Source: Hormiphora californensis
Lineage: Eukaryota; Animalia; Ctenophora
DNA length: 64,000 nt
Reading direction: 5' to 3'
NCBI GenBank assembly: GCA_020137815.1
Contig: CM035358.1
Span: forward strand, 1,984,001 to 2,048,000
Under the pieces are notes generated by a model, which saw only the letters and a list, made by a program, of their open reading frames with translations, did not search any database and was not told where the DNA came from. Both the position numbers and the translations under genes were made by a program. Below, piece by piece: positions 1 to 55,100 of the stretch (its first letter is position 1; the number at the start of each line of letters is the position of its first letter).

Positions 1-209
1 TGAGAAGAGAGAAAGAGAGAGATAAGGAGAAAGAGAGAGTGAGAGAGAGAGAGAAAGAGAGAGAGAAAGTGAAAGAGAGACGTAGAGAGAGAGAGAGAGA
101 GAAATCAGAGAGGGAAAGATAATGATGAAACCCGGAGAGGGCAAAGGTGTCAGTTTGACAACAAAATGGTCACCTTTCCAGCCAACTAATTTCTGTTAGT
201 TTTTGGCAT
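1..209. mobile_element. Partial MITE with AG-microsatellite core (same family as 52494-52800, opposite orientation)
   Basis: 131-209 is the near-exact reverse complement of the arm at 52494-52573. It is preceded by (AG)n and the same junction sequence. Confidence 0.75.
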
Positions 210-548
210 AATAATAATAATAATATTCCGTGCTTATATACCGCCCATACCCGACGGAAACATGTCAAAATATTGGCGATGTTCCGACGAGTCATTAGAG
301 CGGTATATCCTAGAGTATAAATATCGCACACGAACAATTCTGGTTGAAAAAAGACAATATATGGAAAAACCTAATTAACTGGACTTATCAAACTGGGGGA
401 ATAACTGGTCCCATGAACCTGTAGATATAATCTTAAACACGCTATACTCACACCTGCTCGAAAAAAAGGATACTAGGTAGTGATTTAATAACATGACTCG
501 AGAGAGGATGACACTGATTGCCCGTAGGCCCCACAACTACAACAAACA

Positions 549-3500
549 TTACAACTCAGCCATGGGTTCCCCATCACCCACTCCAAATGCACCAACGAAG
601 AGATGTGTTTTCAGACGAGCCTTGAAGGTATCAACGTTGGGGATTGACCTAAGCTCCAGGGGTAGCTCATTCCAAATAGTAGGCAGAAATACTGATATTC
701 TCCTACGTCTCAATTTAGAGTTGGCGTTGATACTGGTCATCTTGGGGTGTTTTAATCTGTAAGGATCAATAACATTTGTCATCCTTGTTGTCCTGGAGAC
801 TCCCCAGCTTTCATCAAGAGGTACCATTTCCTGGAGGTAACCTGGTGCTGTTCCATGGACTATCTTATATGCGATTAGACAAGCTTTGAAGTCCAGTCGG
901 TAGGAGATGGGTAAAATATGACACTGCCTGAAGTATTCCGAGTAATCATCTTGATGCCCATGGATGTTGAATATAAAGCGTACACAGGAGTTAAGCGTTT
1001 TCTGGAGCCCACCAAGAACACGGGCAGGAAGTCCACAGTACAGAATATTACTGTAATCGATCCTCGATATAATCAATTGCTTCACCAACATTATCTTCGT
1101 TTGGATATCAAAACATCTGTGTAGCTGCCAGAGATTCCGCAGTATCAGACCACACTGTTTCCTCACATTATTAACCTGTCGTTCAAGATTAAGATTGTGA
1201 TCCAAGAGTATCCCTAGGGTTTTCCCATCTGTTCCACTGCATTCGCTGGGGAATATTTCCGTTCCTCCAAAGTTGATAACTGGGTCGAAAGAGACTTTAC
1301 TTAAAGAACTGCGCTTTCCAAGCAGGATGAATTCTGTTTTTGCCTCATTACACTTCAACCACTGTCCCACCATCCACCTCTTCACCTCCGCTAGACACTC
1401 CTCAATATCCACCTTCGTCCTAGACCAGCCAGTAGAATCTGTAGGAACCAGACTCACATAGAGCTGGGAGTCGTCTGCATATAACTTTATCCGAAGTCCA
1501 TACGGTTCCACAATGTCTTGCACAGCTTCGATGTAAAGTAGAAACAAAATAGGACCAAGAAGGGACCCCTGGGGCACTCCACATAGTAATGCCAGGGTAT
1601 CCGAGAGACAATCACCAACCGAGACTCTAAAAGATCTGGAACTCAGGTAACTCTTAAACCATTGAAGAGGATCGCCATCCACTCCAAACCGATTCTGCAA
1701 CACCTCCAACAACTTCCGGTGATCCACTGTGTCAAACGCAGCGCTCATGTCCAAACAGATCAGAGCTACAACATTTCCTTTATCCATTTCACCTAGTACA
1801 TCATCAAACATGCTGGCTAACAGCGTTTCGCAGCTATGACCAGCACGATAACCGGATTGATGCTTGCCCAAAAGTGCATTGCGTTCAAGGTACTCATTCA
1901 GCTGTGTGAGCACCACCTTTTCTAAGACCTTAGAAAGGAATGGGATGTTTGATACAGGACGATAGTTGCTGAGAGTTTCCCTATCTCCGTACATATTCTT
2001 GATGGTAGGAAACACGATAGCTTTCTGGAGAGATTCTGCAACTGTTGACTGACGGAGAGATTGATTTACCATCGATGTTAATACCGGAGCAAGATCCCTA
2101 ATACACTCCTTTACCACCCAGGTGGGCAAGGGATCAAGGTCACAATGTTTGCTTGACATGGACTTTACCACCAAAACAAGTTCCTCCTCAGATATCTCTT
2201 TGAATTCCTTCCACGTTGAATGACAGGCCTTTCCGGGTTCCTCAAAGTCGCCAGCTTGCTGTTGCTCCTCATTGACTTGGGTTCGAATCTTTTCCACTTT
2301 GGAACTAAAGAACTGCGAGAAATCGTCCGCCAAACTCTTGGTGTTTGTTGTTTCAGGAAGAATTGTTTCAGCTTTTCCAAGGAGTTTCTGGAGCTTACTT
2401 TGCAATTTCTTTGGGTCACCTTTGGCAGCAACCAAGTCCTCTTTAATGAAAAGTGACCTCTTTTCCCTATCCATCTTTCCATACAGTTTCTTCAGGTCAT
2501 TAAATCTCCGTTTCGCATCCACAGTTCCAAGTTTCCGCCAACACCGTTCTGCATTCCTCCTCTCACGTAGTAATCCTCTAAGTTCCTCATCCCTCCACGG
2601 TTTAAACTTTTTTCCAGTCCTCACCCGCTTCCTCGGTACTCGCTTCTCCACTATACCTTCCAGCCAACGATAGAAATTCACAACACCCTCTTCTGGATCT
2701 CTACCTCCCTCAAAATCCGCCTTCCGCAAGTCCTCTTTAAATCCTTCCAAATCCACAGACTTGTAATCCATGTATTCCCGATACACTGATTTCTTCAGAC
2801 AGGAGTTCGATAGGTCAGGTCTCACTTGAATCCCAAACTGCACCAGGAAATGATCCGATGTAGTACCATTGGGAAATATGGTTAAATCACCCAGAGTAGT
2901 TTCCCTCGCAGTTATCACCAGGTCCAAGGTTCCTCCAAGCTGGTGAGTAGGCAACAGTGGCACTCTTTGTTGCAGATCAAAAGAATCCAGTAGCTCCAAA
3001 AGTTTCCTCGCATAGAAGTTATTATCATCCTGCACCTGGAAGTTTAGGTCACCAGCGATGATCGGGGTACCTTGCTTCATAACAAGCTCGGACAGGTAGT
3101 CACCAAACTCCGACAGGAAAGTTGCTTCTGTAAGTCTCGACTTCGGTGTGTAAGGAGGGCGGTAGACATTACAGATCCTCTTCGGTTGATCTCTGTCACT
3201 GATCAGGACCTCTTGTACTTGAAAAGACTTATACTTGGTCTTCACCGGACACTGCCGAAGAACTATTCCATCTCGAAAAAGAATTCCAATTCCCCCACCT
3301 CCTCTGTCTCCTCTGGGGCATGAGAAAAGATCCCATCCATTATCTCTGATTTCTTGGAGTTTCCCTGTGTCTGTTGATTTCAAAAATGTCTCCTGTATGA
3401 GACAAATATCACAATCCTTTTCTTCCAGATGCGAAATAACACCTCCAGTTTTGTTGATAAGAGAGCGGACATTTAGTGTCCCAATCTTCCAAGTCTTTTC

Positions 3501-3551
3501 CTGTGTAGTTCCTCCTTTGTCCTCGTCCAGTACAGGTTTTTTCCTCCTTGC
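549..3551 (-). CDS. LINE ORF2: apurinic endonuclease + reverse transcriptase
   Basis: The frame is open from about 3551, upstream of the 3383 call: KIGTLNVRSL, ICLIQETF, NVYRPP, AGDLNF, TLDLVIT, SDHFLV (APE); NYRPVSN, QSGYR, LDMSAAFDTVDH, GVPQGSLLGP, LYADDSQ (RT). C-terminal WNELP..R...FKARLKTHLF is typical of CR1/L2. Confidence 0.95.
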   Translation of the reverse strand, partial: ARRKKPVLDEDKGGTTQEKTWKIGTLNVRSLINKTGGVISHLEEKDCDICLIQETFLKSTDTGKLQEIRDNGWDLFSCPRGDRGGGGIGILFRDGIVLRQCPVKTKYKSFQVQEVLISDRDQPKRICNVYRPPYTPKSRLTEATFLSEFGDYLSELVMKQGTPIIAGDLNFQVQDDNNFYARKLLELLDSFDLQQRVPLLPTHQLGGTLDLVITARETTLGDLTIFPNGTTSDHFLVQFGIQVRPDLSNSCLKKSVYREYMDYKSVDLEGFKEDLRKADFEGGRDPEEGVVNFYRWLEGIVEKRVPRKRVRTGKKFKPWRDEELRGLLRERRNAERCWRKLGTVDAKRRFNDLKKLYGKMDREKRSLFIKEDLVAAKGDPKKLQSKLQKLLGKAETILPETTNTKSLADDFSQFFSSKVEKIRTQVNEEQQQAGDFEEPGKACHSTWKEFKEISEEELVLVVKSMSSKHCDLDPLPTWVVKECIRDLAPVLTSMVNQSLRQSTVAESLQKAIVFPTIKNMYGDRETLSNYRPVSNIPFLSKVLEKVVLTQLNEYLERNALLGKHQSGYRAGHSCETLLASMFDDVLGEMDKGNVVALICLDMSAAFDTVDHRKLLEVLQNRFGVDGDPLQWFKSYLSSRSFRVSVGDCLSDTLALLCGVPQGSLLGPILFLLYIEAVQDIVEPYGLRIKLYADDSQLYVSLVPTDSTGWSRTKVDIEECLAEVKRWMVGQWLKCNEAKTEFILLGKRSSLSKVSFDPVINFGGTEIFPSECSGTDGKTLGILLDHNLNLERQVNNVRKQCGLILRNLWQLHRCFDIQTKIMLVKQLIISRIDYSNILYCGLPARVLGGLQKTLNSCVRFIFNIHGHQDDYSEYFRQCHILPISYRLDFKACLIAYKIVHGTAPGYLQEMVPLDESWGVSRTTRMTNVIDPYRLKHPKMTSINANSKLRRRRISVFLPTIWNELPLELRSIPNVDTFKARLKTHLFVGAFGVGDGEPMAEL

Positions 3552-3821
3552 TTACATCTGAAGTCCTCTCCATAAGCCGTGCTCGTTCATTTATGTACGA
3601 TGGACACCACATACTAGAAGCTGTATGGGTCCTCGCATACTTCTTGTCCTCTCTTGATCCTCCAACTGCACAGTTCACACACTTCATCTTACCGGTCTCG
3701 TTGTTCTTCTTTGCTCTACAGTCCTTTGTCTGGTGTGTTCCAGCACAAAAGCAGCACACAGGATTTTCCTTCTGAGGACAGTAGATCGAGCCTGCTATAT
3801 GTCCGTATCCTTGACAGTGAT

Positions 3822-4409
3822 TCCCAGTGGTGCTCGATTGAAAATCTTAACTCTATCGAAATATTTTGAACGGCAAAATTTGAAGAAAATAGCTCATCTG
3901 AACGGCAAAATTCACAGTAACATAAACCGAGCCCCATTTGTGACTAAGTGTGGTCTAATGAACAGTTTAGAACCGTAGATAGGCGGTAGATCGGTAAGAT
4001 AGAGTTAATCGATTTTATAGGTCTAGTGAGACTTAGTCAAAATTTGACAAAATGGCTTATTTGATGAGTTAAATTCAAAACAACCAAAACCAAACCCCAT
4101 TTGTGACTAAGTGTGGTCTAATGAACAGTTTAGAACCGTAGATAGGCGGTAGATCGGTAAGATAGAGTCAATTGATTTCATAGGTCTAGTGAGTATTAGT
4201 GACACGAATAAGGTATATAGTTGTTAAAAATCGTCAATCTACATTTCCGATGTGGCCGAGTGGCTAAGGCGCCATACTTATGACACGCAAGGTCCCGGGT
4301 TCAAATCCCGCATATCAATTTTGCATTTTTTTACTGAAATTTTCCAACGGCAACGCTTTTATGAACGGCCAATTCAATTTGAACGTTAAGCAATCGAGCA
4401 CCACTGGGA
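3822..4409. mobile_element. Non-autonomous DNA transposon (19-bp TIR, 7-bp TSD) with internal direct repeat and tRNA-like sequence
   Basis: TIR TCCCAGTGGTGCTCGATTG at 3822-3840 and its reverse complement at 4391-4409. TSD CAGTGAT at 3815-3821 and 4410-4416. Direct repeat of about 110 bp at about 3925-4037 and 4087-4200. Confidence 0.9.
4246..4318 (+). pseudogene. tRNA-like sequence (Pol III A and B boxes) inside a MITE
   Basis: A box TGGCCGAGTGG, B box GGTTCAAATCC and a downstream T-run. The anticodon arm does not pair cleanly. Confidence 0.6.
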
Positions 4410-5442
4410 CAGTGATAGCATTGAATCACATGATACCTGTTCTTGACAAAATGTTGTCGAAGACCCAAGTTGAGTTTATCACCGTTGTTAGACAAAAGCC
4501 TCCGGATCTCTGGAGCCATCTGGATCACTGCATACCTGTCTCTTTCGCTCACAAACACCACTTTCAACTTCTTATCCTCATGGTAAAGCTTCCTGATATC
4601 CTCATTTTTGTCCAAAATCGCTGCCAGGATAGTCTCCTTTTCCAGTAGTTCAGGGTTCAAATCATTAATCGTCACCTTTGGTTCAAGCTTCTTGGCCTCC
4701 TCTGAGAAGAATGACATGGAACAGTCCTGTGCAAGAGGAGTCAAAACTTTCTCCGCTTCTTTCATCTGGTCCTCATTAGGAAAGTACAGCCGGGTATGGT
4801 CACTGTTCACTCTGGATCTCACCACCGGTATCGTCTTCAACGCAGTTTCCACTTTGGGTTTGACCTCATCAGTCCACTTCTTCGCACAGAATCCTGCCTC
4901 TCCTTCCTCATTGATGCCAGTTGTAATATTCACATAGTGTTTCATCGTAGGTGTAACCGGTTCCTCTGGATCACCACCACCAATATCACTTTTCCCATTC
5001 TCCATAGGTTTGACCAAAGCAGAGATAGTTGAAACCAGATCCTTGTGCAGCTTTGCAAACGACTCTTTCAGATCAGTTTGGTCTCCAGGAACAGAAAACG
5101 GTGCCGACGCCGGAAGCATATTGTAGCAGGCTTTGAGAAGATGCCACAACTGAGGTTTATGGACAGACGACGGACAAACAGAGTCACCCCTCTCAAGGCA
5201 CACTAACAAATCACTACCCTTATAATCATTGCTAAATACTTCTCCTGATAACACGTCTTCAAAATCACTCTTAGTGATACATATGTCATAAGATTTCGTC
5301 ATCCTAAAACACCCGTTGCACGCCGGCCAACAACAAACTCTTCACTGATATCACTCGTAAGTTAAGTTAAAGTAGGCCTAACAGAGATCTAAAAGATTAG
5401 AGAATAGATGCTAACACAGTTATCGGAACGATTGACGGCAAA

Positions 5443-5483
5443 CTCAAATTAATTTGTTTAAAGTAGTGTTGAAAAGTTTGAAA
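5443..5483 (-). other. Spliced-leader-like 41-mer, copy 1 (5' end of full LINE)
   Basis: Identical to 11515-11555 (+) and 15033-15073 (-). Resembles the ctenophore SL exon ending ...AAACAAATTAATTTGAG. Not followed by a GT donor, so not an SL RNA gene. Confidence 0.85.
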
Positions 5484-5576
5484 AACAAGCCATTTAATGG
5501 AAGAGTAAATGAGCTATTCACAGTAACTGTTATTTATGAAGCCTAGAAGCCTAGCTTCCATTTTTCAGGGACTTAC

Positions 5577-8724
<3,148 letters not shown>

Positions 8725-9192
8725 GGTGGAGCATGTCCCTAATTTGGATCATTTAAAGGGATTTTGAGGTTGTATACCGGTGGTAAACCGAAAAAAGGTG
8801 AGCGGGCAGAGATTAAGGAAGGGTCAAAAGTGTGAAAATAAAACTCTGCTGATTATCCTAAAATGTCAATAAATAACCACACACTTGAGATGTAAATAAA
8901 AAACACTGGCCTAGCAAAACTCTATCTCAAATCACGGACAAACAAACGTTCAAAATGGTCCGTTATTTTACTAAAAAAGTTCTGACAGATAACTGAAACT
9001 GGATCACCACGACCACCGGGGCTTCATACCTAATGACCTAACAAATTCTCCGCCCTGGTTTAGAATATTATACTCGCCCAAATGTGTCTAAATTGGTGTA
9101 TTCTGTGTTAATATTATGGTCCAGGCAACCTCAGGTTTACTTTTTTTGAAGTGGTTAAAACTCCTCAGACTAGAATCGTTACTATTGTCCGA

Positions 9193-12100
9193 CTAGGAGT
9201 TGCCATATTGTCTCTGGTACTTGGAGGAACGTTGCAGGATTATACTAGCGAAGAAGTTGTAACACATGAAGGTCATACCAGTCGACATGAACGCCTGAAA
9301 ATAAGAGATGAGTTGTCAAAATACTAGTAATATAAGGAGCAATTCGTCGTGAAAATAACGCAAAAGTTTTATCGGGAAAATATTTAGAACCGGTATATGA
9401 CAAAAGGAAGGTGAAGGACGAAGGTCGACCACCCTAAGGATGCCCAGTAAGGAATTTTCTACTAATTATGTACCAATGTACCCCCACTGGGGTTCCTTGG
9501 TCCCCCAGAGCCCTGGCAAGAGTATCACTGGAAACACAACTTGCAAACAATAATTTAATTTAACTAATAAACTAATTAATACCCTACCTTGAGTAAACTG
9601 GGAACACCACCCTTATAAAATCCCCTTACACCCTCGTCTCTGTACATCTTGTTTACGCAGTGAACTACACCCCGGTATTCGGGAATGTTGTACAGACCTC
9701 CCTGTGAAACTACCTCTCTGAAGCCTTGTACCTGGGAGTCAAATAATTAAATTAAATTATCAATTGAACATTATCAATTTGATATAGAGGCCAGAGGGAA
9801 ATTTTGGTGCTAGCAAAGCAAAGCATGGCGACCTGGATAGATTCAATACAAACAAATCAATAATGCAAAGAAAAGTATATGCAGTAAAATAGGAAGGACA
9901 AGATCAACATATTATTTTACACCAGATTTTTTAGATTTTACCTGTAATCTTTTCTTCACTAGATCCAAAGGCAACACCTGACACTTTAGCTAAAAGACCG
10001 GACAGGGCACCAAAAGCGAAGCTCACGGCACTGGGAATTGACTTGCCTTCCCTTGGGAAGAATCTGAAGAGAAATATATCAATGTGTGTTAATTGTAAAA
10101 TAAGAATAAGTTTTTGCGCTATGTAGTAATTGGGGTTGGCCTGCTGCTGATAAGCTAAAATTGAACTTTATTTGTTCAATGTGTGTGTGTGTATATAATG
10201 TGTGTGTGTGTGTGTGTGTGTGTATTCTCGAGCTTTGAGCTGCCAATTAGAGATCGTCAAAGTCACTTACATATCATAAATTACAACGAAAGATGTATAA
10301 GCACCAAACTGCATGCTTGCATAGGGGATGACTTGACATAAATTCGGTAACAATCCACGGTAAAATCCTCTCAACCCATCCGATTGAAAAATCTTACTGA
10401 ACGCTTCAAACGTCGTCCGATACATCTGGAAAAAAAAGTTTCTCGGTGAAACAACCATATTTAATTAATTACAACTGAGAACATCATCATGATACAGTCA
10501 AACCTCGATTAACCGGGCTAAAATCCTTCCCCCGATGGCCGAGGAGTCCGGTAAATCGAGGTATAATTACTGTATCCAATTAGTACATACTGTATAATGG
10601 TATAATGAGAGGGTGCAAACCTTGGGTTGCCTCTGCATGACCATCCGGGTACGGACAGTGTCAAGGGGCTGGGTTAGAAAACTAGCCGTCATACCAGCCA
10701 CACCACCACAACAAAAACTGTAGGAGGGAACACGTAATATTAGACAAATAATAGATCTGTATTAAATCTGAACACTTTGTTATCAAGCAAATAACTATTA
10801 AAATTATGAATTTCAAAAATAAACACCTTATAAGAGGTTTATGATAGGCTTCATTACGGTGAGCCATCAGCGTCAGGGCTTTAGATGTTGCCAGCTCAAA
10901 TGTACCAAATTGTGTAGACACGTAGACGATAGAGAGCATTTGAGATGATGTATGACCCTTCCTGAAATATAACTGTCAAAACAACGCCAGAGATTATACA
11001 CAACTTCATATAAATCGTCTGTTACAGTAGAGATAATAGCGTTTTCTTTTGACCATCTTGATTGAAGCCGGATGTGTTGTCTCTACAGACTATTACTCAT
11101 ACAGCTCATAAACAGTTATCCGATATTTATCCTGTCCATAAATTGCTACTTAAAGTTCGTACCAAAATGCTCTGACGCCTTCTTCTCGTAGGACCCGAGA
11201 AAATCCATCGATTATGCCCTTGTAAAATCCGTTGTGCTTCTAAAAATATAAAACGGTTATAATCATGAATTTAGATTGGTAATTAAGCAGCATTTACCTT
11301 GCCAATGGGATCAGAATGTAACTGGAATCGGATCTTTAGTACGTCAAAGGGGGACACAACAGCTCTGGTAATAATTCCACTCCCTGCACCTGTGACACAG
11401 TTATATACCGTTAGTCATACATTCAGACTTTCACAGTTTTACCCATGCTTTACCTAGTGTGTTCTCCCTAATGTATGTAGCCCAGCTTGGGGGTGGAGTA
11501 AACCCCTCAATCTATTTCAAACTTTTCAACACTACTTTAAACAAATTAATTTGAGTTTTAGGATAAAGCTGATGTAACAGCCCACGAGGGGCAGAAAGAA
11601 AATGGTAAATACTGATAATGAAGAAGAAGCAACTCCTCGGATTTACCTGGCAGCTCATCCTGGCAAACCGGCTACTGATATTGATAGGAGGAATGTCAAC
11701 GACTGCCAAAGTGATACAGTATATTGGGTAAAAGACTTGTTGTCGGATTGTTCAGGGTTTGGATACAGTAACCCAGAGGCAGTGAGATATGGAACTGGTC
11801 CTCCACCAAGGTCTACCTGGGATGATTTAGAGGTTCCGTCTGCGAGCAAGCTTAATACGCTGTCGAAGAAAAAGCTTTTAGATTTTACTAAGAGGGCGTG
11901 TGGTATTTTTCTTGAACAGACATTTCCACTAATTGAAAAGTTGCGTGACAAGGGTTCTGAAAGTATGATGGTGAGAGAGTGCGAAAAGGAGCTCAGACAA
12001 CATGGAAAGGAGCTAATTAAAGCTCAACGAGACCTCGTAGCAGCACAAGAGGAACTACTCAATATCCAGAGGCAGTTGCTTGAGAAGAGGGAGGTTGAGA

Positions 12101-12824
12101 TTACAGCTGTGCAGTCAACGGCACAGCAAGAATTGAAGAGCTTCGCATCCGTTTTGGAGAAAGAATGTGCCTCGGCTCTGGCTCCAAGAAAGATTCAATC
12201 AGCGATTGTGGCAGCCTCTGAGGACCGTGGGTGCAACATCATCATCCATGGCCTGGAAGAGTCAATAAATAGTAGCGTAGAGCTTGAAACTCAAGTTGAG
12301 TCTCTTCTTGTTGAGCTAGGAGAAACTCAGAACGTGAAATCAGTGGAGCGCATGGGAAGGCAGTCCTTAACTGTCAGACCAGTGAAAGTCGTACTGAAGA
12401 GCAGAGACGCTCAGATGTCGATCCTGTCGAAAAAATCCCGACTAAAAAGGACCGGCAAGTTCGATAAAGTCTACATTTCGCCTGACAGGACTTTGGAGGA
12501 ACGAAATGAGAGAAAACAGCTTGTTGATCGACTGAAGGAAATGGTTCAAAGGTCTCCTGGAAAACACTACTTCATTCGTGGGAAGGAGGTGGTGGAAGCA
12601 CCAGGGACTACTGAGAATTGAAATTAAATTTGTTGAGTTTAGAAGTGGTGAGCGAGGAAAGGACAGTTGAGTTGAAAGGTGGTCATTTGTTTGATAGCCT
12701 CAATTTATTTTCAAGTTTCAAGTTTTTTTCAAGTTTATTCTAGGAGATCCCATAAACTTTCCCATTCTTTACCTGCTAATACAGCATCGCTTGGGTGGAG
12801 TTTTATTTTCTTTCCATAAATCAT
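9193..12824 (-). CDS. SLC25A19: Mitochondrial thiamine pyrophosphate carrier (multi-exon)
   Basis: Exon 1 12824-12773 (MIYGKKIKLHPSDAVLA) and exon 2 11389-11298 (GAGSGIITRAVVSPFDVLKIRFQL). Later exons give QPLDTVRTRMV, GLRGFYRGLLPNLCQVIPYASMQF, PLDLVKKRLQ and GVRGFYKGGVPSLLK. Three carrier PxDxxKxR motifs. Stop at 9193. Confidence 0.85.
10495..10574. mobile_element. Tiny Tc1/pogo-type MITE
   Basis: TA-CAGTCAAACCTCGATTAACCGG ... CCGGTAAATCGAGG...ACTG-TA. A related remnant lies at about 24373-24410. Confidence 0.6.
11515..12738 (+). mobile_element. SL-capped ORF1-only non-autonomous retroelement in SLC25A19 intron 1 (antisense to host)
   Basis: 41-nt leader at 11515-11555, a single intact ORF, a 3' UTR of about 90 nt and a (TTTCAAG)n-like tail. 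Possible 4-bp TSD TCTA. Confidence 0.8.
11602..12621 (+). CDS. CR1/L2-type ORF1-like protein (coiled coil + RRM-like/CTD), 339 aa
   Basis: Coiled coil followed by NIIIHGLEES, RMGR...RPVKVVL and VYISPDRTLEERNERKQL. Intronless; no RT follows. Confidence 0.8.
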   Translation: MVNTDNEEEATPRIYLAAHPGKPATDIDRRNVNDCQSDTVYWVKDLLSDCSGFGYSNPEAVRYGTGPPPRSTWDDLEVPSASKLNTLSKKKLLDFTKRACGIFLEQTFPLIEKLRDKGSESMMVRECEKELRQHGKELIKAQRDLVAAQEELLNIQRQLLEKREVEITAVQSTAQQELKSFASVLEKECASALAPRKIQSAIVAASEDRGCNIIIHGLEESINSSVELETQVESLLVELGETQNVKSVERMGRQSLTVRPVKVVLKSRDAQMSILSKKSRLKRTGKFDKVYISPDRTLEERNERKQLVDRLKEMVQRSPGKHYFIRGKEVVEAPGTTEN

Positions 12825-13294
12825 GTCTGTTGTTTCAGATTCATGCCGGGTGCTACAAGTTCCCACTTAGAAAGTTTAACTGGACAAACTAGAATAAAAA
12901 GGTACAAACTTTATTTTTTAAAATCCCTTAACGCCATAACGAACAGAGCAAAAATCTAACAAAACTTGGCAAACGGCAGGGGTAGATCCAGCGGCCAACC
13001 CGAGCCCCGAAACTTTCGGGCTGTGTCTGCCCTATCTATTGAAAAGCGCTGCCTTATCCCGCGCTACCGGCTACGTTTGCCAAGCCTATCTTATATCTAG
13101 ACTCATGGCGCCGTTACGATCAGGGTTTTTACTTGAAAAGCGCTGCCTTATCCCGGGGGGGGGGGGGGGGGAGCGGCGTTTGCCAAGGTTTTTACGGGGC
13201 TCATTAAAGGTGAGTGCCAGTTCGTTGTGGTTACACTAGGGACTGCACTCTGCAGTGGGTCCTAAAAGGGATCCCTAAAAAAGTTCAGTATTTA

Positions 13295-13653
13295 CACAGC
13301 GTTTACACAGTCTTTACACAGTCGTTACACCCAGAGCGCCCGCGCCGCTCTGGGTGTAAAGTGCGTTTCAAACGACTTGACCTGAGATTCCTGGAAATTC
13401 AGGATTTCCCCTTTGTAAATACACGCGCGATGCGCCGAATTCCAAGAATTAAGGGTCAAGTCGCTTGAAACGGACTTTAAAGACTGCGTCTTTCGCACTC
13501 GATTTGCAGCGTTATCGGAAACTTTTTTCGCCGCAGCGCTCAATTTACTCGATTGTGCAGCACACAATCCAATATTTTCTTAGAAAAAGCCGCAAAACGC
13601 AGCACGCGCCGCTCTGGGTGTAACGACTGTGTAAAGACTGTGTAAACGCTGTG
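13295..13653. mobile_element. MITE with TA TSD inserted in the left TIR of 13268-15212
   Basis: About 45-bp TIR CACAGCGTTTACACAGTCTTTACACAGTCGTTACACCCAGAGCG, flanked by TA on both sides. Confidence 0.85.
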
Positions 13654-13765
13654 TATACTCGGATTTTTTGAAACTGTCACCCCCCTTAAATAAAAAAATT
13701 TGTCATTTCTCCGGTTCCTGATAAGATAGAGACTTGAAATTTGGAGGTTCGCAAGAACTTAGCAT

Positions 13766-15073
13766 TGAATGAATGAATGAACATCACAATTTATATTAGA
13801 GTTCTTAACAGACTCTTCCCGCTCTTACACTATAGACATATATAGTTAAGTATATATATCCTACAAGGCCGAGAGGCTAAGAGCATCGGCAGTTACCTAA
13901 AGCGGGGTAACATATATAGAAACAGTCCGATAGATAAAGTTCAGTTCGCTATCCGACTTGGATCACATTGTTTCTGATGTAATAATTGCCACCTGGATCA
14001 TCTGTCCGAACCCGTTTCAAGGTGGCTAGCAGAGCTTTTCGCTCCTTTAGTTGGGAGGGGTTAAGATCCGGTGACAGATATATGGTAGAGTGTTTTTTGG
14101 ATTCTTTGAGCTGCCGTGCCTTCTTCAGCAGCGCCAAAAGGGTTGCTCTCTTCTCAAGAGATACCAAGAGCGGCCTAGGGCGTTCCTCGTTTCTCTCACC
14201 GATACGTTTCATGTTAGCAACTTTCGGTTTCTCGTTCAGTTCTTCAAATAGCTCATCCACATTGGTTCTATCAGCATTCTCAGTTGATTCTGGGAGCCCA
14301 AATATTACCAAGTTCTTCTCTCGATTTGTCTGGGGTATTACTGTAGCAGAAAGAGGCTTAGAAGTTGGTGGCTTAGGGGGAGTTGGTAGCTTTTTCGCCA
14401 TAGGGGAGGCTGCGGCATAGTTTTGAGCCAGGACTGTCGAGTAGGCTTTCACCTTCTGCACTGACGTTTCCACTGAGCTCAGTTGTTCTTTCTGGGCATT
14501 GATGACCGTTTGTTGCAGTTCAATGATCAAAACACGATTTCGTTCAAGCTCTTCTTTGCACACAGAGAGTTGCTTCTCGAGTTTTTCTGCTGTGATTACG
14601 GTGTTCAAATTGTTCATCGCTGCTTGAGCAAGTTTAGCACTGGAAACAAAGAGGTTGGTGGTGACATCAACAACTTGTTTTGGAGAAAGGTCCTTGAGAC
14701 GATGTTTGAAGAATGTCCCCATGTTATTTTCGGTTGGGCCCGAGCAATCAGGAGTAAAATCCCTCGCAGGTGCATATTTGATGGAATTATAGCACTGACT
14801 AACGTTCTCGGGTGTGATACTTATCTGTTGTTCGGGAACAGCAGCCCAATGCAGCCGTTCAACTCCCAAAACAAAGTCATCAATGGATTCGATCAGTTGT
14901 TTTATCTTGGGGTTATCGCCCTCGTACGGTAAGCGAAGAATATTATCCAATCTTTTATCTTGATACATCGGCTTCATTATCAGCGTTTCACTTTTCTGCC
15001 CTTTGGGGCGGTCACATCACCATATCTACCTGCTCAAATTAATTTGTTTAAAGTAGTGTTGAAAAGTTTGAAA
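13766..15073 (-). mobile_element. SL-capped ORF1-only non-autonomous retroelement
   Basis: 41-nt leader at 15033-15073, a single intact ORF, a 3' UTR of about 170 nt with a small terminal hairpin (AGAGT...ACTCT) and a (TTCA)n tail. Confidence 0.8.
13949..14977 (-). CDS. CR1/L2-type ORF1-like protein, 342 aa
   Basis: Coiled coil followed by REKNLVIFGLPES, RIG...PRPLLVSL, IYLSPDL and YYIRNN. Same architecture as 11602-12621 but divergent. Confidence 0.8.
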   Translation of the reverse strand: MKPMYQDKRLDNILRLPYEGDNPKIKQLIESIDDFVLGVERLHWAAVPEQQISITPENVSQCYNSIKYAPARDFTPDCSGPTENNMGTFFKHRLKDLSPKQVVDVTTNLFVSSAKLAQAAMNNLNTVITAEKLEKQLSVCKEELERNRVLIIELQQTVINAQKEQLSSVETSVQKVKAYSTVLAQNYAAASPMAKKLPTPPKPPTSKPLSATVIPQTNREKNLVIFGLPESTENADRTNVDELFEELNEKPKVANMKRIGERNEERPRPLLVSLEKRATLLALLKKARQLKESKKHSTIYLSPDLNPSQLKERKALLATLKRVRTDDPGGNYYIRNNVIQVG

Positions 15074-15375
15074 GATCTTCGTAACTTCCAAATTTCAAGT
15101 CTCTATCTCATCAGGAACCGGACTTATGGTCATTTAAAGAAATTTGAAAACTCTAGGGGGGTGACAGTTTCAAAAAATCCGACTTTAAATACTGAACTTT
15201 TTTAGGGATCCCTAAGGCTAAACGGTCGAAAAGTGGGTCCTAAACGGTCGAAAAGTCAAAAATTATAAAAATTTCGTAAAAATTTCGTTAAAAGTTAAAA
15301 GTTTTCGTGGAAGCTCTTATAAACGGTTTTCCCACGCGCGCGGCGTCGCGCGGCGTAAAAAGCAACACAGTGCTG

Positions 15376-15745
15376 ACAAAAAATCTGGGCTGCGCGTGGA
15401 TTTTTCAAATTTTTCGTTCTCTCTTTTTTTTAAATTTTACATTTTAGTAAAAGTCTTCCGGTGGGCCTCGACCCCCACCGGGGCTTACAAAAAATCTGGG
15501 CTGCGCGTGGATTTTTCAAATTTTTCGTTCTCTCTTTTTTTTAAATTTTACATTTTAGTAAAAGTCTTCCGGTGGGCCTCGACCCCCACCGGGGCTTGCA
15601 GCCCTGAGCCCTGCTCGCGGGGACTCCGCCCCTACACCAACGCGGGTGCTGCGCTCCTGGACCCTGCTTGTGGGGGGGTTTCACGCCCCAGGCCCCGGAC
15701 GCACAGGGACGCGCTGGGCCGAAGGCCCAGCTCCGTCGACCGTCA
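15376..15745. repeat. About 112-bp direct repeat (x2) followed by a GC-rich hairpin cluster; probable TE fragment
   Basis: ACAAAAAATCTGGGCTGCGCGTGG...CCCCCACCGGGGCTT occurs twice. Hairpin GCTGGGCC-GAA-GGCCCAGC follows. Confidence 0.65.
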
Positions 15746-16068
15746 CTGATTTCAGTCGAGTGTAAGCACTCACGGATTTTAGGATTAGGGCTAAAGTAGG
15801 GTTAGAACTTAGATTTAGGGCTGAGATAGATGGGGCTGTATTGTATTGGGGGCTTAAGATTTCCTATCGGATAAACCTTGAATTGGCCAAAACGGTTGAG
15901 TGCAGGCTACTTTTTTGGCAGAGTGCACCTGTAAACAGGCCTTTAAACACCCAGATTGTAACAGCGCCTTCTTCACGCCTAGCCCTCATCGGAAGTTTAG
16001 CTGGATAGGTGGGGAAGGTTTCCGAGCATGTTGCAAGGCACAAGGAATGTTACGCTGTCTCTCCTTAA

Positions 16069-17080
16069 GGCCAGAGGGGGGGGGTCGACCGATTTTTGAC
16101 CCTTATTTTGGGACATTTTTGGGGTTACCATCATGTGATAGCGCTTGGCATACCGGACCAGATGGATATGACAAAATTGATTTTGCGCGAACGGTTTGGG
16201 GGGAAAATGGGGTTAACTTTTGGCCTGAAATCAATGTAAACCCCATTATTTTAGGACTGGTAGGGGTTGGAACACCCAATCGAGTGTCAAACACTTTGTC
16301 TTATCAAGAGGGATCACTCTGCAAAGTTTTATACCATAAGTCCAACTGGTCTTTGAATTATTTGGGGTTAACAAAATATGGAAAAATCGACATTATGGCT
16401 CCCCTCTAAACCACATTTTTACACATGGTTAACCACTTTCTGAGAAAACGGCTATGATCTAGACCTTGTCGTTTGGCACACTTGTTCTACAGACCAAGGA
16501 GCATGAAACATATGTAGCGATTTTTGATTAAGGCCCTCATTCAAAAATTATGGGGGTTTACAAATGTTTGGTCGAGAAAAATATCATGTAAACCCCCATA
16601 ATTTTTGAATGAGGGCCTTAATCAAAAATCGCTACATATGTTTCATGCTCCTTGGTCTGTAGAACAAGTGTGCCAAACGACAAGGTCTAGATCCTAGCCG
16701 TTTTCTCAGAAAGTGGTTAACCATGTGTAAAAATGGGGTTTAGAGGGGAGCTATAATGTCGATTTTTCCATATTTTGTTAACCCCAAATAATTCAAAGAC
16801 CAGTTGGACTTATGGTATAAAACTTTGCAGAGTGATCCCTCTTGATAAGACAAAGTGTTTGACACTCGATTGGGTGTTCCAACCCCTACCAGTCCTAAAA
16901 TAATGGGGTTTACATTGATTTCAGGCCAAAAGTTAACCCCATTTTTCCCCCAAACCGTTCGCGCAAAATCAATTTTGTCATATCCATCTGGTCCGGTATG
17001 CCAAGCGCTATCACATGATGGTAACCCCAAAAGTGGCCCAAAATAAGGGTCAAAAATAGGTCGACCCCCCCCCTCTGGCC
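16069..17080. mobile_element. About 1-kb palindromic non-autonomous DNA transposon, Kolobok-like
   Basis: TTAA TSD, GG...CC termini, near-perfect inverted arms of about 490 bp and a short loop near 16565-16585. Confidence 0.9.
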
Positions 17081-17110
17081 TTAACTAGTAATTCCCCAAA
17101 ACTAGCCAAA

Positions 17111-19645
17111 ATGTCGGATCCTGTCGAACAACCAGCGTTGACAACTGTCCCTACTGCTCTTCTGAGAAAGCGACGACAGTTGAACAAAGAACGTGTCGCC
17201 AGAGCTGTCGAAAAGAAGCTTCAGGATCAGGTTATTATTATTATTAAGGGTACACCTGGCGTTTTTCATCATCGAGTGCCCAACCAAATGACTTCACCAG
17301 GGTTTAGGCCATACAAAATGGACCTCAAATATGCAATTTTAGCCCTAAAGTCGAATTCATATTTTTGCTACAGCCTATTTTCAAAGTGGCGTTTTTTCAA
17401 TTTTTGTTGAAATTTTTAACCTCAGGACCACTTTTTTTGAGATAGAAACATTAAATTCTTGGAATTTGAAGAGAATATAAAGGTGAATAAGCCCAAAGAA
17501 GGATTTTTGAAATGGAGCTTATTTCTGGCCATGAGAACGGTTTACTTTTTTGCTTCTTTGACACGCTGGCTGAGAATGTTCCCATGCTTCATTAGAGATG
17601 AAAATCTGGAAATAGTTGCTCAAAACGATTATCTATGTGGCCCAAAAATTTTGGAACTTTCCCGCCAAAGATGTGGTGTACAGAGCTTTTTTTGTGAAAC
17701 CTGTCTTTTTGAAAAAGAGGGAAATTCCCTGTATCTCAAAAACGGATGATCGTAGAGACCTGGGACCAAGCTTAATCGATTCAGAAGGTCCGATTTTGGG
17801 GGGGTCTTCTGAGAGACATTTTGCTCCTACTCCAACCGTTTTTGCTGTAATTGCGAAAAAGGTATCAGCAAGTAAGGGGGAAATCAGCCCGAAGCAGGCT
17901 ACTGGAATAGAGTTGTTTCCCTTTTTCATAGAATTAGTTTTTTGCAATTACAGCAAAATCGGTTGGAGTAGGAGCAAAATGTCTCTCAGAAGACCCCCCC
18001 AAAATCGGACCTTCTGAATCGATTAAGCTTGGTCCCAGGTCTCTATGATCATCCGTTTTTGAGATACAGGGAATTTCCCTCTTTTTCAAAAAGACAGGTT
18101 TCACAAAAAAAGCTCTGTACACCACATCTTTGGCGGGAAAGTTCCAAAATTTTTGGGCCACATAGATAATCGTTTTGAGCAACTATTTCCAGATTTTCAT
18201 CTCTAATGAAGCATGGGAACATTCTCAGCCAGCGTGTCAAAGAAGCAAAAAAGTAAACCGTTCTCATGGCCAGAAATAAGCTCCATTTCAAAAATCCTTC
18301 TTTGGGCTTATTCACCTTTATATTCTCTTCAAATTCCAAGAATTTAATGTTTCTATCTCAAAAAAAGTGGTCCTGAGGTTAAAAATTTCAACAAAAATTG
18401 AAAAAACGCCACTTTGAAAATAGGCTGTAGCAAAAATATGAATTCGACTTTAGGGCTAAAATTGCATATTTGAGGTCCATTTTGTATGGCCTAAACCCTG
18501 GTGAAGTCATTTGGTTGGGCACTCGATGATGAAAAACGCCAGGTGTACCCTTAAATCTGTTTACAATAATTTGACACTGTCAATATTGCCCTCCTATTTG
18601 CGAGGATCAGGTTAGATCTGTTAGCTCAATTTTGTTATGAGCTCCAATTTATGGTAAATGATTTTATTACATTTACACAGTTGCCAGAGATGATTCCAAA
18701 TACATTTTAAGAAATAACCTTCTAATCCATCCACTAGAAAAAGGCCGGCAAAGCGAAGGCACCATTCAAGCGTGCAGAATATTTCGTCAATGAGAGTTAC
18801 AGGAGCACCATGAACACCAAACGAATGGGGAGACTGAAGCATACCATTGCCAAAGTCCCTGAATCTGTCTCCATTCTTTTTGTTATGAGAATCACCACTG
18901 TACGAGGTCCAATGCCGCAATCCGTCAGGAAGATTCTTCAGGTATGCAGTCGTTCGATGAAACTTGTTATGTTCTAACCCTTCTTTACATTTGGGGGCGC
19001 GAAACACAGTCTAGCTAGGCAAGATGAAACCAGTACTGTTGCTTTTCAAAATACTGTATAAAACCTAACTCATTTCTTTGTTACTAGAAAGAAGCGTTAT
19101 GTATCATGTATACGAGATTTAATAATAATAATTCTTTGTTACAGAGTCTCAGACTGAATGAGCTGAACAATGCAGTGGTTGTAAAGCGAAGTGATAAGAT
19201 GATTGAGATGCTCCGAGTTGTTGAACCTTATATCACCTGGGGTTACCCTAGTCTGAGATCTGTTCACAATCTTGTCTTCAAATACGGTGATTATACAGAT
19301 ATATCTGAATTGATTAAACATATGATCACATACAATTGATTCGAACATCTAACCCACTTTTTTCTCTCAGGATACGGTCAAGTGAAAGACGAGAAGGTTG
19401 CTCTGAGTTCCAACTTCATTATTGAGAACACCTTCGCTGAGCAAGGCATGCTGTGCATTGAGGACCTGGTAAAACAGCTTTATGAAGTTGGACAGCACTT
19501 CGATGCGATTAACAAGTTTATGTGTGTGTTCAAGCTGACCCCGCCCAAAGGAGGATTCAGGAGGGTTGCAACGCCCTTCAAGCAGAATGGAGCCTGGGGA
19601 AACAGGGCTGAGAAGATCAACTCTTTGATCAGGAAGATGCTTTAA
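17111..19645 (+). CDS. RPL7L1: Ribosomal protein L7-like / ribosome biogenesis protein RLP7 (4 exons)
   Basis: Exons at about 17111-17230, 18738-18941, 19145-19286 and 19370-19645: VPTALLRKRR, FKRAEYF, LFVMRI, RKILQSLRL, VEPYITWGYPS, LCIEDLV, FKLTPPKGG, GAWGNRAEKINSLIRKM. Divergence favours RPL7L1 over RPL7. Confidence 0.75.
17248..18550. mobile_element. About 1.3-kb palindromic non-autonomous DNA transposon, Kolobok-like, in intron 1 of the RPL7-like gene
   Basis: TTAA TSD, GGGTACACCTGG...CCAGGTGTACCC termini and near-identical inverted arms of about 610 bp. Confidence 0.9.
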
Positions 19646-19829
19646 TTAACGAGATGACATTGTGAAGTAGTAGTGGTGTAACTTTTAATTTATTTTAAGC
19701 AGCATTTTATCATTTAAAAGAACCGTTTGTTTTTAGTTTCTTCAAACCTTCCCCCCAAAAACTCTTAAACATTACACAAACCTCCGCCCAAAAAACTCCT
19801 AAACATTCCACTCACACTAGTTTAGCAAT

Positions 19830-29982
<10,153 letters not shown>

Positions 29983-52195: not shown

Positions 52196-55100
52196 GAATC
52201 ACGTGAAAGAACAGCTGTCAGGATGGTACGATAAACTGCAGAAGCACAACATTCAAAACTACCTTGTTATCCACGCAATCTTCCAGGTAACAGACAGACA
52301 GACAGACAGACAGACAGATAGACATGAAATGACAGGGGGGGGGGGACATGTTAATTGTTAATAAATCACCTCTTTTTTCCGATTTTGTTAATTTACGTTA
52401 ATTAAACAAAATTAACAAAATTAACAAATGCTAAAATATTGGTGTTATCGGTTGATAATACGACTTTAACTGATTTAATTTTGTAGTTTAATTATGCCAA
52501 AAACTAACAGAAATTAGTTGGCTGGAAAGGTGACCACTTTTGTTGTCAAACTGACACCTTTGCCCTCTCCGGGTTATTTTCATCATTATACTTTCCCTCT
52601 TGATTACTACTCTCTGATTTTCTCTATCTCTTCTCTCTCTCTCTCTCTCTCTCTCGTTCCTCTCCTCTCTCTCCTCTCTTCACTCTCTTTCTCTCTCTTC
52701 CCAGTTCCTCTCTTTCCGTAACCCGGGCCGGGCAAAGGTGTCAGTTTGACAACAAAAGTGGTCACCTTCCAGCCAACTAATTTCTGTTAGTTTTTGGCAT
52801 TTAATTTAGGTATTTTTGGTATTTTCTGATTTAAAGTACGATGTAAGACATGTTCTGGACGGCAGAACTTGTAAAGACCGCCAGGAATACGAAAATTTGA
52901 ATTTTGACGTCATTGTGACGTATAGCGTGACGTCACGACGTTATAACGTCATGCTAGTGAAAAATTAGTATTAGCCTCATCTAGTAAAGATGCTGACCTA
53001 GTTTGAGATCGATTGGACAGATTTGAGGTCGCTATGGCGAAAAAACACACTATCGTCATATCTATTTTCATACAGTCTTAACACTTCAGACGCGATTTAA
53101 GACCCTGAAAATAGAGTTTCACAAATTCGCAATACAGTTTCTGAAAGTTTAGACGATTACCTTCGTAAGTGTGGTCTCCATTTTCAATCAGAAGCCGTCT
53201 CTCAATGTGTAAATGAGCTCAGAAATTTGGTTGATTTGAAAATGTCTTAACTTTATGACAGTATTTTAGGACGTTCTGGTTGCGACCTGAAGATGAAAAT
53301 CGCCAAAAACACAATTCAAACGATTATCTTTCGAATACAACAAACGAGAAGTGTCTATCTTATGTAGTCTTTCCAGAAAATTGTCTGCAAATTGTGTAAA
53401 AAAGCGTCTATATGTATGTATGTATGTATGTACATGGATATATAGACCAGGGACATTTATTGCTTTTTTCACCATGTCAGAACTCTGAAACTAAAAGAGA
53501 TAGAAACTTGCCCTTTTGAACTCCAGTAGATCTAGTCTACGTGACACTGTGTGTGTGTGTGTGTGTTCAGTACCTCCCGTCGTTCCACCCCATGCTGAGG
53601 TTATTGATGACCCTCAGCGGCCCGTTACTGACTCACTCCTTGCCAGATGACCCCCACACGCAGGGTCAGTCGGTATGATTCCACTTAGATTCACTGGTTT
53701 CCCAGCAGTCTCTTTATGGTACCGCAAAAGGAGCATGCGAGTCTGGTCGGATTTGGCACGGAGAAATCTTCCCGCAGACATGTGATGGGACTTACCGTCC
53801 AATTGGTTGGTCTTTGGTTACCACTGTCACGACAACATGTGGAAGTAGGTGATTTGCCGGATATCATGATATCCTATCAAGGGATTAAATGCTTATCTTT
53901 ACACCAAGGGTTGTAGTCTAAGCTAGCTAGTAATGTATTTCACAAGTACGACCCAAGGGTCGGTCAGGCGATGTTGCATCGCCGGGTGGCCAGGTGTATA
54001 GATAGTTGGTTGTAAAACAACGTTCATGGTTTCCCTGAGTGCATTTGACCAGTATCAGTTCACTCAGGGCTTCGCGTAATTAATGCGAGGGGTTCTCAGT
54101 GTATGGCTGTTTGCTATTTGAATAAGGGTACCATTGATTAAGTGTCCCAAACTTAATGGGCTTTTCCCTGACTACTACAGGGTCTTTCAGATTTGTAGGT
54201 TTGTCACTTGCCTAGTTTGGGGTGTGCGTGTCTGAGGCTCGTGTGATTTGTTGTAGGTGTGGGGATCACGCATGTGCGGAGCTTGGATAGTTCTGTTTAG
54301 TCTTTTTGTGATCTGTCATAATGTTGTATAGGGTCCTCGTGTTGTATTGGAACATGTTACAGTTGGTGAACCAGCTTTATGAATTTTTAGGTCAAGAGTC
54401 GATGTGTGGAGTAGATGTTGTGCTCGAGTTATTGTAATCTGTCTTGTGTCTTAGTTCGTCAGGTTTGGGCAGTGGAGTAGATTGCTCTGATGTTTCTTTC
54501 TTGTGCAGAGTTTGCATAGGGGCTTATTTTATTGTCCCTGTGTGCGAGAGAGCATCCTAGGTTGTTTTGGTTTGAGATTGCTAGTGTGAGGCTTCTTAGC
54601 GTGGGTTTGTTTGTTATTGTAAGTTTTGGGTAAACATTCAAGAGTTTTTTGGAGGATAGTGTGGTCCATGATTGTAGTTTGATTTTTCTAGGTCGTTTAG
54701 GGTTAATTTATCTGTGTGTTGTTTTAGTCGGTGTAGGATTGTGTCTCGTGAGTGGTAGGGGTTTTGGGCAGTTTTCGCTATTGTTTGTGCCTCTTTTGGC
54801 TAGTAGATCAGCTTTTTGTTGACTCTTCGATGCCTATGTGTGCTTTGACTTTGTTTAATGTCACTTTGTTGTTTTCTTGGAGTGACTGGATTTTTTGTTT
54901 TGTTGTTTCTAGATGTTTGGATCTTGTAGTGCTGCTGAGTAGGTTTGTTAGAGTGGTTTGGGAGTCAGAATAGAAGTTGATGTTCGCTTCTTTCGTGTTT
55001 GTCTCCAAGAGATGGGTGGTTGCTATCAGTATGGCCTGCATTTCAGCTTGGTTGATTGTGTTTTCTGGTGCCATTGTTTGGGTTAATGTTTTAACATCGG

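What the first reader, a model, noticed from the sequence alone, without database searches (positions are those of the whole stretch)
11515..12738. ORF1-only 'half-LINE' no. 1: SL + intact ORF1 + short tail, no RT
Seen: a 1.2-kb unit consisting of SL, a 46-nt UTR, an uninterrupted 339-aa ORF1-like frame, a short 3' UTR and a TTTCAAG-like tail, antisense in SLC25A19 intron 1. Established: LINEs truncate from the 5' end, so a 5'-complete, RT-less unit with its own tail is not ordinary decay. HAL1 is the precedent in the L1 clade. Inference: a non-autonomous CR1/L2-group family that keeps ORF1 and borrows ORF2 in trans. An alternative is a bipartite system in which ORF1 and ORF2 mobilise as separate SL-capped RNAs.
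Basis: partly seen in the sequence, partly recalled or inferred. Interest (0 to 1): 0.8.

Follow-up and report, generated by a model that had tools for sequence, protein, structure and literature searches.

The report
Comb-jelly leader-capped half-retrotransposon family
In a comb jelly, a repeated 1.2-kb mobile element, present in one allele of this site and absent from another, starts with the host's spliced-leader tag and encodes only a predicted RNA-packaging protein; it likely borrows its copying enzyme from full-size LINE elements and likely gets its front end from host trans-splicing.

Summary
Confirmed. Window 11515-12738 is a 41-nt ctenophore spliced leader (SL), a 46-nt UTR, an intact 339-aa ORF, an 86-nt 3' UTR and a TTTCAAG-type tail, antisense in a mitochondrial-carrier intron. 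The ORF model's best matches are human L1 ORF1p. It is a mobile family, not a domesticated gene or a one-off deletion. An empty allele exists, and other copies end at the tail in at least five other flanks. ORF1 dN/dS is 0.17-0.27. A subfamily with 70% protein identity has the same ends and no ORF2. Only 1 of 118 listed relatives lies on a contig of 3 kb or more, versus 16 of 36 for an autonomous control. Tails differ between subfamilies, and a probable second leader occurs in two clades, suggesting heads come from trans-splicing. ORF1-only LINEs are known (HeT-A, HAL1, Ag-Sponge), SL-headed retroelements were noted in flatworms, and this scan found SL-headed LINEs before in dinoflagellate DNA. 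I found no description of this ctenophore lineage. The partner LINE, expression and the route back to transcription remain untested.

The parts
11513..11516 (+). 5' copy of a probable 4-nt target-site duplication (TATT), overlapping the first two T of the leader
   Evidence: Filled allele has TATT at both junctions. The empty allele in run X5 has exactly one 4-nt block between the same flanks, differing at 2 of 4 letters (table 7). A 4-nt match alone could be chance.
11515..11555 (+). 41-nt spliced leader, lacking the first 2-3 nt of the published leader
   Evidence: PMC8527503 passage; 41/41 identical in elements 2 and 3 and found exactly in L002
11556..11601 (+). 46-nt 5' UTR with a conserved TGATGT..GCCC/GGGC hairpin motif at 11570-11594 (function unexplained)
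   Evidence: 46/46 identical in L002 despite dS 0.52 in the ORF. The motif is also in element 2 and partly in L001, and is consistent with N-terminal read-through peptides of P0003, P0057, P0065 and P0123. Folding energy is not unusual (z -0.46).
11602..12621 (+). ORF1, 339 aa: predicted long coiled coil (119-192), RRM (about 208-295) and C-terminal domain; type II, L1-ORF1p-like
   Evidence: AlphaFold2 model; all 9 Foldseek matches at E<=0.001 are human L1 ORF1p, best 1.7e-5; VIA-align Z 10.4, rmsd 2.3, 88 aligned, to 2w7a; dN/dS 0.27 and 0.17. Pfam Transposase_22 was not hit.
12622..12707 (+). 3' UTR with a predicted stem-loop at 12671-12704, candidate ORF2p recognition signal
   Evidence: Fold z -2.15 and -2.42, but only -1.11 for the L002 counterpart. 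About 90% identical in L002. A different repeat enters at about 12686-12691 and shares the last ~45-60 nt in runs X4, X5, X7 and X10.
12708..12735 (+). TTTCAAG-type microsatellite tail
   Evidence: Depth falls to flank level after about 12727 in 3 of 3 DNA runs laid, with loose ends into other flanks at 12725-12728.
12736..12739 (+). 3' copy of the probable 4-nt target-site duplication
13766..15073 (-). Element 2: distant relative with the same design (SL, UTR motif, 342-aa ORF1 at 13949-14977, (TTCA)n tail, no RT), inserted between the arms of an inverted repeat
   Evidence: (26% identity, E 4e-23)
207..5483 (-). Element 3 (comparison): full-length SL-headed LINE with an unrelated CCHC-type ORF1 broken by a TIR insert, an EN-RT ORF2 (549-3080) and a (TAT)n tail; not the tail-sharing partner
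   Evidence: (no 3' similarity to element 1)
11390..12772 (-). Host intron of a mitochondrial-carrier (SLC25 family) gene

Best explanation
The unit is a recently inserted, polymorphic copy of a multi-copy ctenophore retroelement family that encodes only a predicted L1-type ORF1 RNA-binding protein, likely receives its spliced-leader head from host trans-splicing, and likely is copied into the genome by the ORF2 enzyme of an autonomous LINE that recognises its 3' stem-loop and TTTCAAG tail. Shown: anatomy, many copies with common ends, an empty allele, purifying selection on ORF1, and ORF1-only relatives across 26-98% protein identity. Inferred: (1) an RNA polymerase II transcript is trans-spliced, giving a capped SL 5' end; (2) ORF1p coats its own RNA in cis, which explains why ORF1 is kept; (3) a partner ORF2p primes at the tail and copies the short RNA to within 2-3 nt of the cap; (4) subfamilies change partner by exchanging 3' ends. 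How an SL-headed copy is transcribed again is open. My odds within this explanation: about 55% re-trans-splicing at the copy's own leader end from host read-through RNA, and 45% SL-less source copies with their own promoter and outron.
For: Empty allele: an X5 contig joins 11469 to 12739, with 139 letters on its shorter side. Depth over the ORF is roughly 10-600 times that of the flanks in X1, X4 and X5 (not a copy number). At least five other 3' flanks start at 12725-12739. L002 has the SL, an identical UTR, the same 3' end, a different 5' flank and no ORF2. L001 has ORF1, a 3' UTR and a (TGA)n tail, and element 2 has a (TTCA)n tail. Selection: 15 of 20 listed copy variants in the ORF are synonymous against 22% expected (p 9e-7), and dN/dS is 0.27 and 0.17. 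Contig-length control: 1 of 118 versus 16 of 36 members on contigs >=3 kb, or 1 of 22 versus 6 of 6 clusters (p 2e-5). None of the best 150 profile hits is longer than 352 aa. Head refreshed rather than inherited: the SL is identical in 4 of 4 heads read as DNA across unrelated elements, and a second leader-like peptide heads members of both the element-1 clade (P0057, P0066, P0013) and the element-2 clade (P0286).
Against: No partner LINE was identified: the repeat sharing the 3' end is known only from 15-30 letters of loose-end consensus. No expression evidence was obtained: 0 contigs of RNA run X15 laid (the tool says this can be false). In X5, summed depth falls from about 58,000 to 18,000 near the stop codon, which fits subfamilies with other 3' UTRs but also copies that run on. 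P0054 (69% identity) lies on an unread 5,405-nt contig. Contig lengths are an indirect measure and members are not independent. The leader ends in GAG, a poor acceptor by the usual YAG rule (recalled), and stronger-looking acceptors 3-6 nt downstream have been kept, which argues against simple self-renewal. The second leader is inferred from peptides only. The L002 stem-loop is not significant.
Confidence: 0.76

Rival explanations
1. Bipartite LINE: ORF1 and ORF2 are carried on two separately mobile SL-capped RNAs that need each other, so the ORF1 unit is half of a system and not a parasite.
For: None of the 118 listed relatives but one is on a long contig, so no autonomous parent with this ORF1 has been seen. 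An unidentified repeat shares the 3' end.
Against: No ORF2-only SL-headed element was seen. The one SL-headed RT element in the window has its own ORF1. Three different tails on one ORF1 lineage fit partner switching better than a fixed pair.
Confidence: 0.09
2. The leader was captured once and is now inherited as DNA; the element starts transcription at the leader from an internal promoter (the conserved UTR motif), with no trans-splicing in each cycle.
For: The 46-nt UTR is fully conserved at dS 0.52 and its motif persists at 26% protein identity, as a promoter would. The leader's terminal GAG is a weak acceptor (recalled rule).
Against: The leader is identical in unrelated elements, including element 3, which lacks the motif. 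A probable second leader type cuts across the element tree. All four DNA heads lack the same first 2-3 nt.
Confidence: 0.08
3. Processed retrocopies of a domesticated host ORF1-derived gene (L1TD1-like) that is trans-spliced like other mRNAs.
For: SL plus ORF plus short 3' end is also the anatomy of a retrocopied mRNA, and purifying selection fits a host gene.
Against: Microsatellite tail rather than poly(A); many copies; at least 22 diverged clusters on unit-length contigs; synonymous bias among the copies themselves; three different tails.
Confidence: 0.03
4. A one-off or recent internal deletion of an autonomous two-ORF LINE whose other copies keep ORF2.
For: The X5 depth drop near the stop codon and one relative on a 5.4-kb contig.
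Against: The same RT-less design in L002, L001 and element 2; common 3' ends; the contig-length control.
Confidence: 0.04

Closest known systems
Ag-Sponge (Anopheles gambiae, CR1 clade; seen only as cited in PMC5786205)
   Same: Non-autonomous LINE derivative that encodes only ORF1p; probably the same LINE group
   Different: No SL head is mentioned in the passage read. Here the lineage spans 26-98% protein identity with at least three tail types and no identified parent. The original paper was not read.
HAL1 (half-L1; passages in PMC5753468, and PMC5786205)
   Same: ORF1-only, with an L1-type ORF1 fold
   Different: HAL1s arose several times from L1 in mammals. This element has a microsatellite tail, a probable 4-nt duplication and an SL head; poly(A) tails and longer duplications for L1 are recalled.
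HeT-A (Drosophila, Jockey clade; PMC5786205 passage)
   Same: ORF1-only lineage that depends on another element's RT
   Different: Jockey-lineage ORF1s are RRM plus CCHC, and HeT-A is telomere-targeted (recalled). This element is dispersed and has a coiled coil-RRM-CTD ORF1.
SL-bearing retroelement loci in flatworms (PMC12582326 passage) and SL on Hydra TE transcripts (PMC12220107 passage)
   Same: Retroelement RNA receives the host leader; 597 flatworm loci with partial leaders are linked to LTR and LINE elements
   Different: There it is a passing remark on discarded loci, or on RNA only. Here near-complete leaders define the 5' end of intact families, autonomous and non-autonomous.
Dinoflagellate SL-relic retrogenes (search listings; mechanism recalled)
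   Same: Genomic DNA headed by leader sequence after reverse transcription of trans-spliced RNA
   Different: Those are mostly host genes with stacked relics. Here a single leader heads a mobile family, with no stack.

Membership tests
ORF1-present non-autonomous LINE (HeT-A / HAL1 / Ag-Sponge type) | Encodes an intact LINE ORF1p | tested here: met
ORF1-present non-autonomous LINE (HeT-A / HAL1 / Ag-Sponge type) | No ORF2/RT between ORF1 and the tail | tested here: met
   indirect family-wide support
ORF1-present non-autonomous LINE (HeT-A / HAL1 / Ag-Sponge type) | Multi-copy and mobile as a unit (common ends, different flanks, empty site) | tested here: met
ORF1-present non-autonomous LINE (HeT-A / HAL1 / Ag-Sponge type) | ORF1 under purifying selection | tested here: met
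ORF1-present non-autonomous LINE (HeT-A / HAL1 / Ag-Sponge type) | 3' end shared with an autonomous partner LINE | tested here: inconclusive
   An unidentified repeat shares the 3' end; element 3 does not; no genome held
HAL1 (L1 clade) | Derived from an L1-clade element (poly(A) tail, L1 parent) | tested here: not met
   The tail is a TTTCAAG microsatellite, not poly(A); no L1 parent seen. The L1-like fold is not clade-specific.
CR1/L2 group | RT phylogeny places the parent or partner in CR1/L2 | not testable with these tools
   No RT in the element; partner DNA could not be fetched
CR1/L2 group | Microsatellite tail with 3' stem-loop, short or no target-site duplication (features recalled) | tested here: met
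   stem-loop support is modest
Type II ORF1 (Transposase_22, PF02994) | Coiled coil + RRM + CTD architecture | tested here: met
Type II ORF1 (Transposase_22, PF02994) | Pfam or PDB sequence-profile match | tested here: not met
   No hit; similarity is structural only (14-18% identity)
Type II ORF1 (Transposase_22, PF02994) | Homotrimer | not tested
   No complex prediction was run
Ctenophore spliced leader | Identity to the published leader, and a genomic SL RNA gene with a GT donor | tested here: met
   GT-starting consensus behind 11555 in X1 and X7
Domesticated ORF1 gene (L1TD1-like) | Single-copy and fixed | tested here: not met

The most novel reading that the evidence does not exclude
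These are members of an old, self-standing radiation of ORF1-only retroelements in ctenophores that has given up both reverse transcriptase and promoter. Host read-through RNA is cut at the copy's own leader by trans-splicing, which rebuilds an exact capped 5' end every cycle (the job a ribozyme does for R2), while exchangeable 3' tails let the lineage switch between RT donors. Such elements, with SL-headed full LINEs, would account for much of the 718 and 491 genomic leader copies counted in Hormiphora and Mnemiopsis.
Probability: 0.33. Interest if true: 0.82.

Novelty: new variant of a known kind. Interest (0 to 1): 0.62.

Why it matters
It adds a ctenophore case to the short list of ORF1-only non-autonomous LINEs, and one that looks like a long-lived, diverse lineage instead of a recent deletion product. 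That makes the value of ORF1p to a parasite RNA testable apart from ORF2. It shows spliced leaders as the actual 5' end of mobile elements in an animal, and it offers a testable account of the hundreds of genomic leader copies that PMC8527503 counted without mentioning retrotransposition in its main text (0 occurrences). In practice these loci can pass for SL RNA genes or host genes: P. bachei gene models fall in the family. Their presence/absence alleles are also population markers.

Tried and rejected
Whole-genome copy count: no genome is held. Leader scans of viral and prokaryote collections gave 0 matches, which is uninformative. The single metagenome scan gave only 2 loci from 142 candidate stretches. 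Rfam gave no match at gathering score in 1-20,000, and the weak hits over the element (E 4.4-4.5) are treated as chance. Hammerhead reading of the UTR motif: rejected by inspection because the core spacing and cleavage triplet do not fit; a box C/D-like reading is only a lead, and folding is not unusual. Pfam and PDB sequence searches do not recognise the ORF. ESM Atlas best hits are unnamed clusters at 0.89, commonest taxon Ctenophora, a lead only. Element 3 as partner: rejected, no 3' similarity. The wide structural search and the trimer prediction were not obtained. Derelle et al. 2010 is not held, so a published second ctenophore leader could not be checked. Searches for a prior description found none for ctenophores; Repbase, Dfam, subscription journals and supplements were not searched and may hold these families.
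Full report
Observation. The unit is as described: a 41-nt head at 11515-11555, a 46-nt UTR, an open 339-codon frame at 11602-12621, 86 nt of 3' UTR and three T-rich TTTCAAG units at 12708-12733. The head equals, by eye, the last 41 of the 44 nt of the Hormiphora californensis spliced leader (PMC8527503, passages read). The same 41 nt head two more elements in the window. A member of the 98%-identity protein cluster is a Pleurobrachia bachei gene model, so the host is a ctenophore, probably a pleurobrachiid (inference). The element lies antisense in the intron 12772-11390 of a mitochondrial-carrier gene; SLC25A19 orthology was not tested.

The protein. Pfam and PDB sequence searches do not name it. 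An AlphaFold2 model from a 22-sequence alignment (mean pLDDT 75.9, pTM 0.36) shows a long helix, an RRM and a small C-terminal domain. All 9 Foldseek matches at E<=0.001 are human L1 ORF1p. VIA-align gives Z 10.4 (rmsd 2.3, 88 aligned) to its central domain, against 8.5 for the next unrelated RRM. This is a type II ORF1, which occurs in L1, CR1, L2 and R1 elements (PMC4120745, passages), so it does not fix the clade. Residues 1-200 are barely tested by the fold search.

Mobility. No genome was held, so I laid contigs of 6 of the 24 listed runs. In run X5 one contig joins 11469 to 12739 with 48 letters between, which is an empty allele. Its junction has one 4-nt block where the filled allele has TATT on both sides; this fits a 4-nt duplication, though the empty allele differs at 2 of the 4 letters. 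Summed depth over the ORF is about 10-600 times that of the flanks in X1, X4 and X5 (not a copy number). It stays high to about 12727 and then drops to flank level in 3 of 3 DNA runs, including a second organism, B. Loose ends at 12725-12739 lead into at least five other flanks (703 and 60 further rows were not shown). Against: X5 depth falls about threefold near the stop codon. RNA run X15 laid nothing, which the tool says can be false.

A family without ORF2. L002 (70% protein identity) has the leader, an identical 46-nt UTR, the same 3' end and tail, and another 5' flank. L001 (55%) has the UTR hairpin, a different 3' UTR and a (TGA)n tail. Element 2 in the window (26%) has the leader, the motif and a (TTCA)n tail. 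None has an ORF2, and no RT similarity lies near elements 1 or 2. As an indirect family-wide test I compared contig lengths. Of 118 listed members with a length, from 22 chosen clusters, 1 is on a contig of 3 kb or more (median 1.3 kb). For the ORF1 of the autonomous element 3 the count is 16 of 36 from 6 clusters. By cluster this is 1 of 22 versus 6 of 6, p 2e-5. Two rows without lengths were dropped and one member was not listed. Members are not independent, and the exception (P0054, 5,405 nt) could not be read. A profile search found 15,921 representatives at E<=0.001, and none of the best 150 exceeds 352 aa; the distant ones may well belong to autonomous LINEs. ORF1 is under purifying selection: dN/dS 0.27 versus L002 and 0.17 versus L001, and 15 of the 20 in-ORF variants shown in the read tables are synonymous (p 9e-7; the tables show only the best-supported variants).

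Where the head comes from. The leader is identical in 4 of 4 heads read as DNA, including the unrelated element 3, and all lack the first 2-3 nt. Gene-caller read-throughs show the same leader peptide on P0169, and a second 14-residue leader-like peptide, sharing its start, on P0057, P0066, P0013 (element-1 clade) and P0286 (element-2 clade). That is 5 of 301 proteins scanned; only read-through calls can show a head. Leader type therefore seems not to follow the element tree, which favours addition by trans-splicing over inheritance (inference; the second leader is unconfirmed). Whether an SL-headed copy can be a source again is open. The leader ends in GAG, a weak acceptor by the usual rule (recalled), and TTTTAG or CAG just downstream has been kept, so SL-less source copies or an internal promoter remain possible. 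The conserved UTR motif is unexplained.

Partner. A different repeat joins the 3' UTR at about 12686-12691 in X4, X5, X7 and X10 and shares the stem-loop and tail. It may be the autonomous donor or another ORF1-only subfamily; I could not fetch it. Element 3 has a different 3' end.

Known systems. ORF1-only non-autonomous LINEs are known: HeT-A (Jockey), HAL1 (L1) and Ag-Sponge (CR1) (PMC5786205, passages; PMC5753468, passages). SL on retroelement RNA or DNA has been noted in Hydra (about 30% of TE reads; PMC12220107, passage) and in flatworms (597 loci; PMC12582326, passage). PMC8527503 counted 718 genomic leader copies in Hormiphora and 491 in Mnemiopsis, with no mention of retrotransposition in its main text. 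Passages of PMC11184263 and PMC12859917 held nothing relevant. Eight searches found no description of SL-headed ORF1-only elements in ctenophores; Repbase, Dfam, subscription papers and supplements were not seen. Two earlier scan notes report SL-headed full LINEs in dinoflagellates; I did not check them, and none matched this sequence or genome.

Verdict. Each ingredient has precedent, so it is a new variant of a known kind. What is new is the combination: a deep, diverse ORF1-only lineage with trans-spliced heads and exchanged tails. Interest 0.62; 0.82 if self-renewal through trans-splicing is shown.

Noticed in passing
window 207-5483 (-): A full-length LINE also starts with the exact 41-nt leader. 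Its CCHC-type ORF1 is interrupted by a 586-nt insert (about 3823-4408) with perfect 18-nt terminal inverted repeats and an 8-9-nt duplication; (TAT)n tail.
   Followed up: partly
window 13766-15073 (-): Second ORF1-only SL-headed element, sitting between the two arms of an inverted repeat; relatives P0147, P0209 and P0170 are all on contigs under 1.8 kb.
   Followed up: partly
proteins P0057, P0066, P0013, P0286: A shared 14-residue N-terminal read-through suggests a second ctenophore leader type that shares the first 9-12 nt with the known one.
   Followed up: partly
window 11570-11594 (+) and 14996-15019 (-): UTR motif (TGATGT, GCCC/GGGC hairpin, downstream CTGATA) is conserved while the proteins are only 26% identical; promoter or box C/D-like RNA element, unexplained.
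   Followed up: partly
reads at 11515 and 11555: Dozens of contigs per deep run join the leader to different upstream and downstream DNA; one downstream consensus starts with a GT donor and likely marks the SL RNA gene.
   Followed up: no
window about 54000-60500 (-): Another EN-RT element (ORF 55614-57881) with strong strand skew and a tandem repeat upstream; no leader match near it, so not every LINE here is SL-headed or 5'-complete.
   Followed up: no
window 6619-7275 (+): MULE transposase fragment (Pfam E 2e-4, below cut-off).
   Followed up: no
window about 16050-18550: Long foldback (inverted-repeat) elements; the Rfam miRNA hits at 16503-16646 are below gathering score and reflect these hairpins.
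   Followed up: no
window 13024-13600: Very high-depth short repeats in reads, with many joints; nested small mobile elements next to the host gene's 5' end.
   Followed up: no
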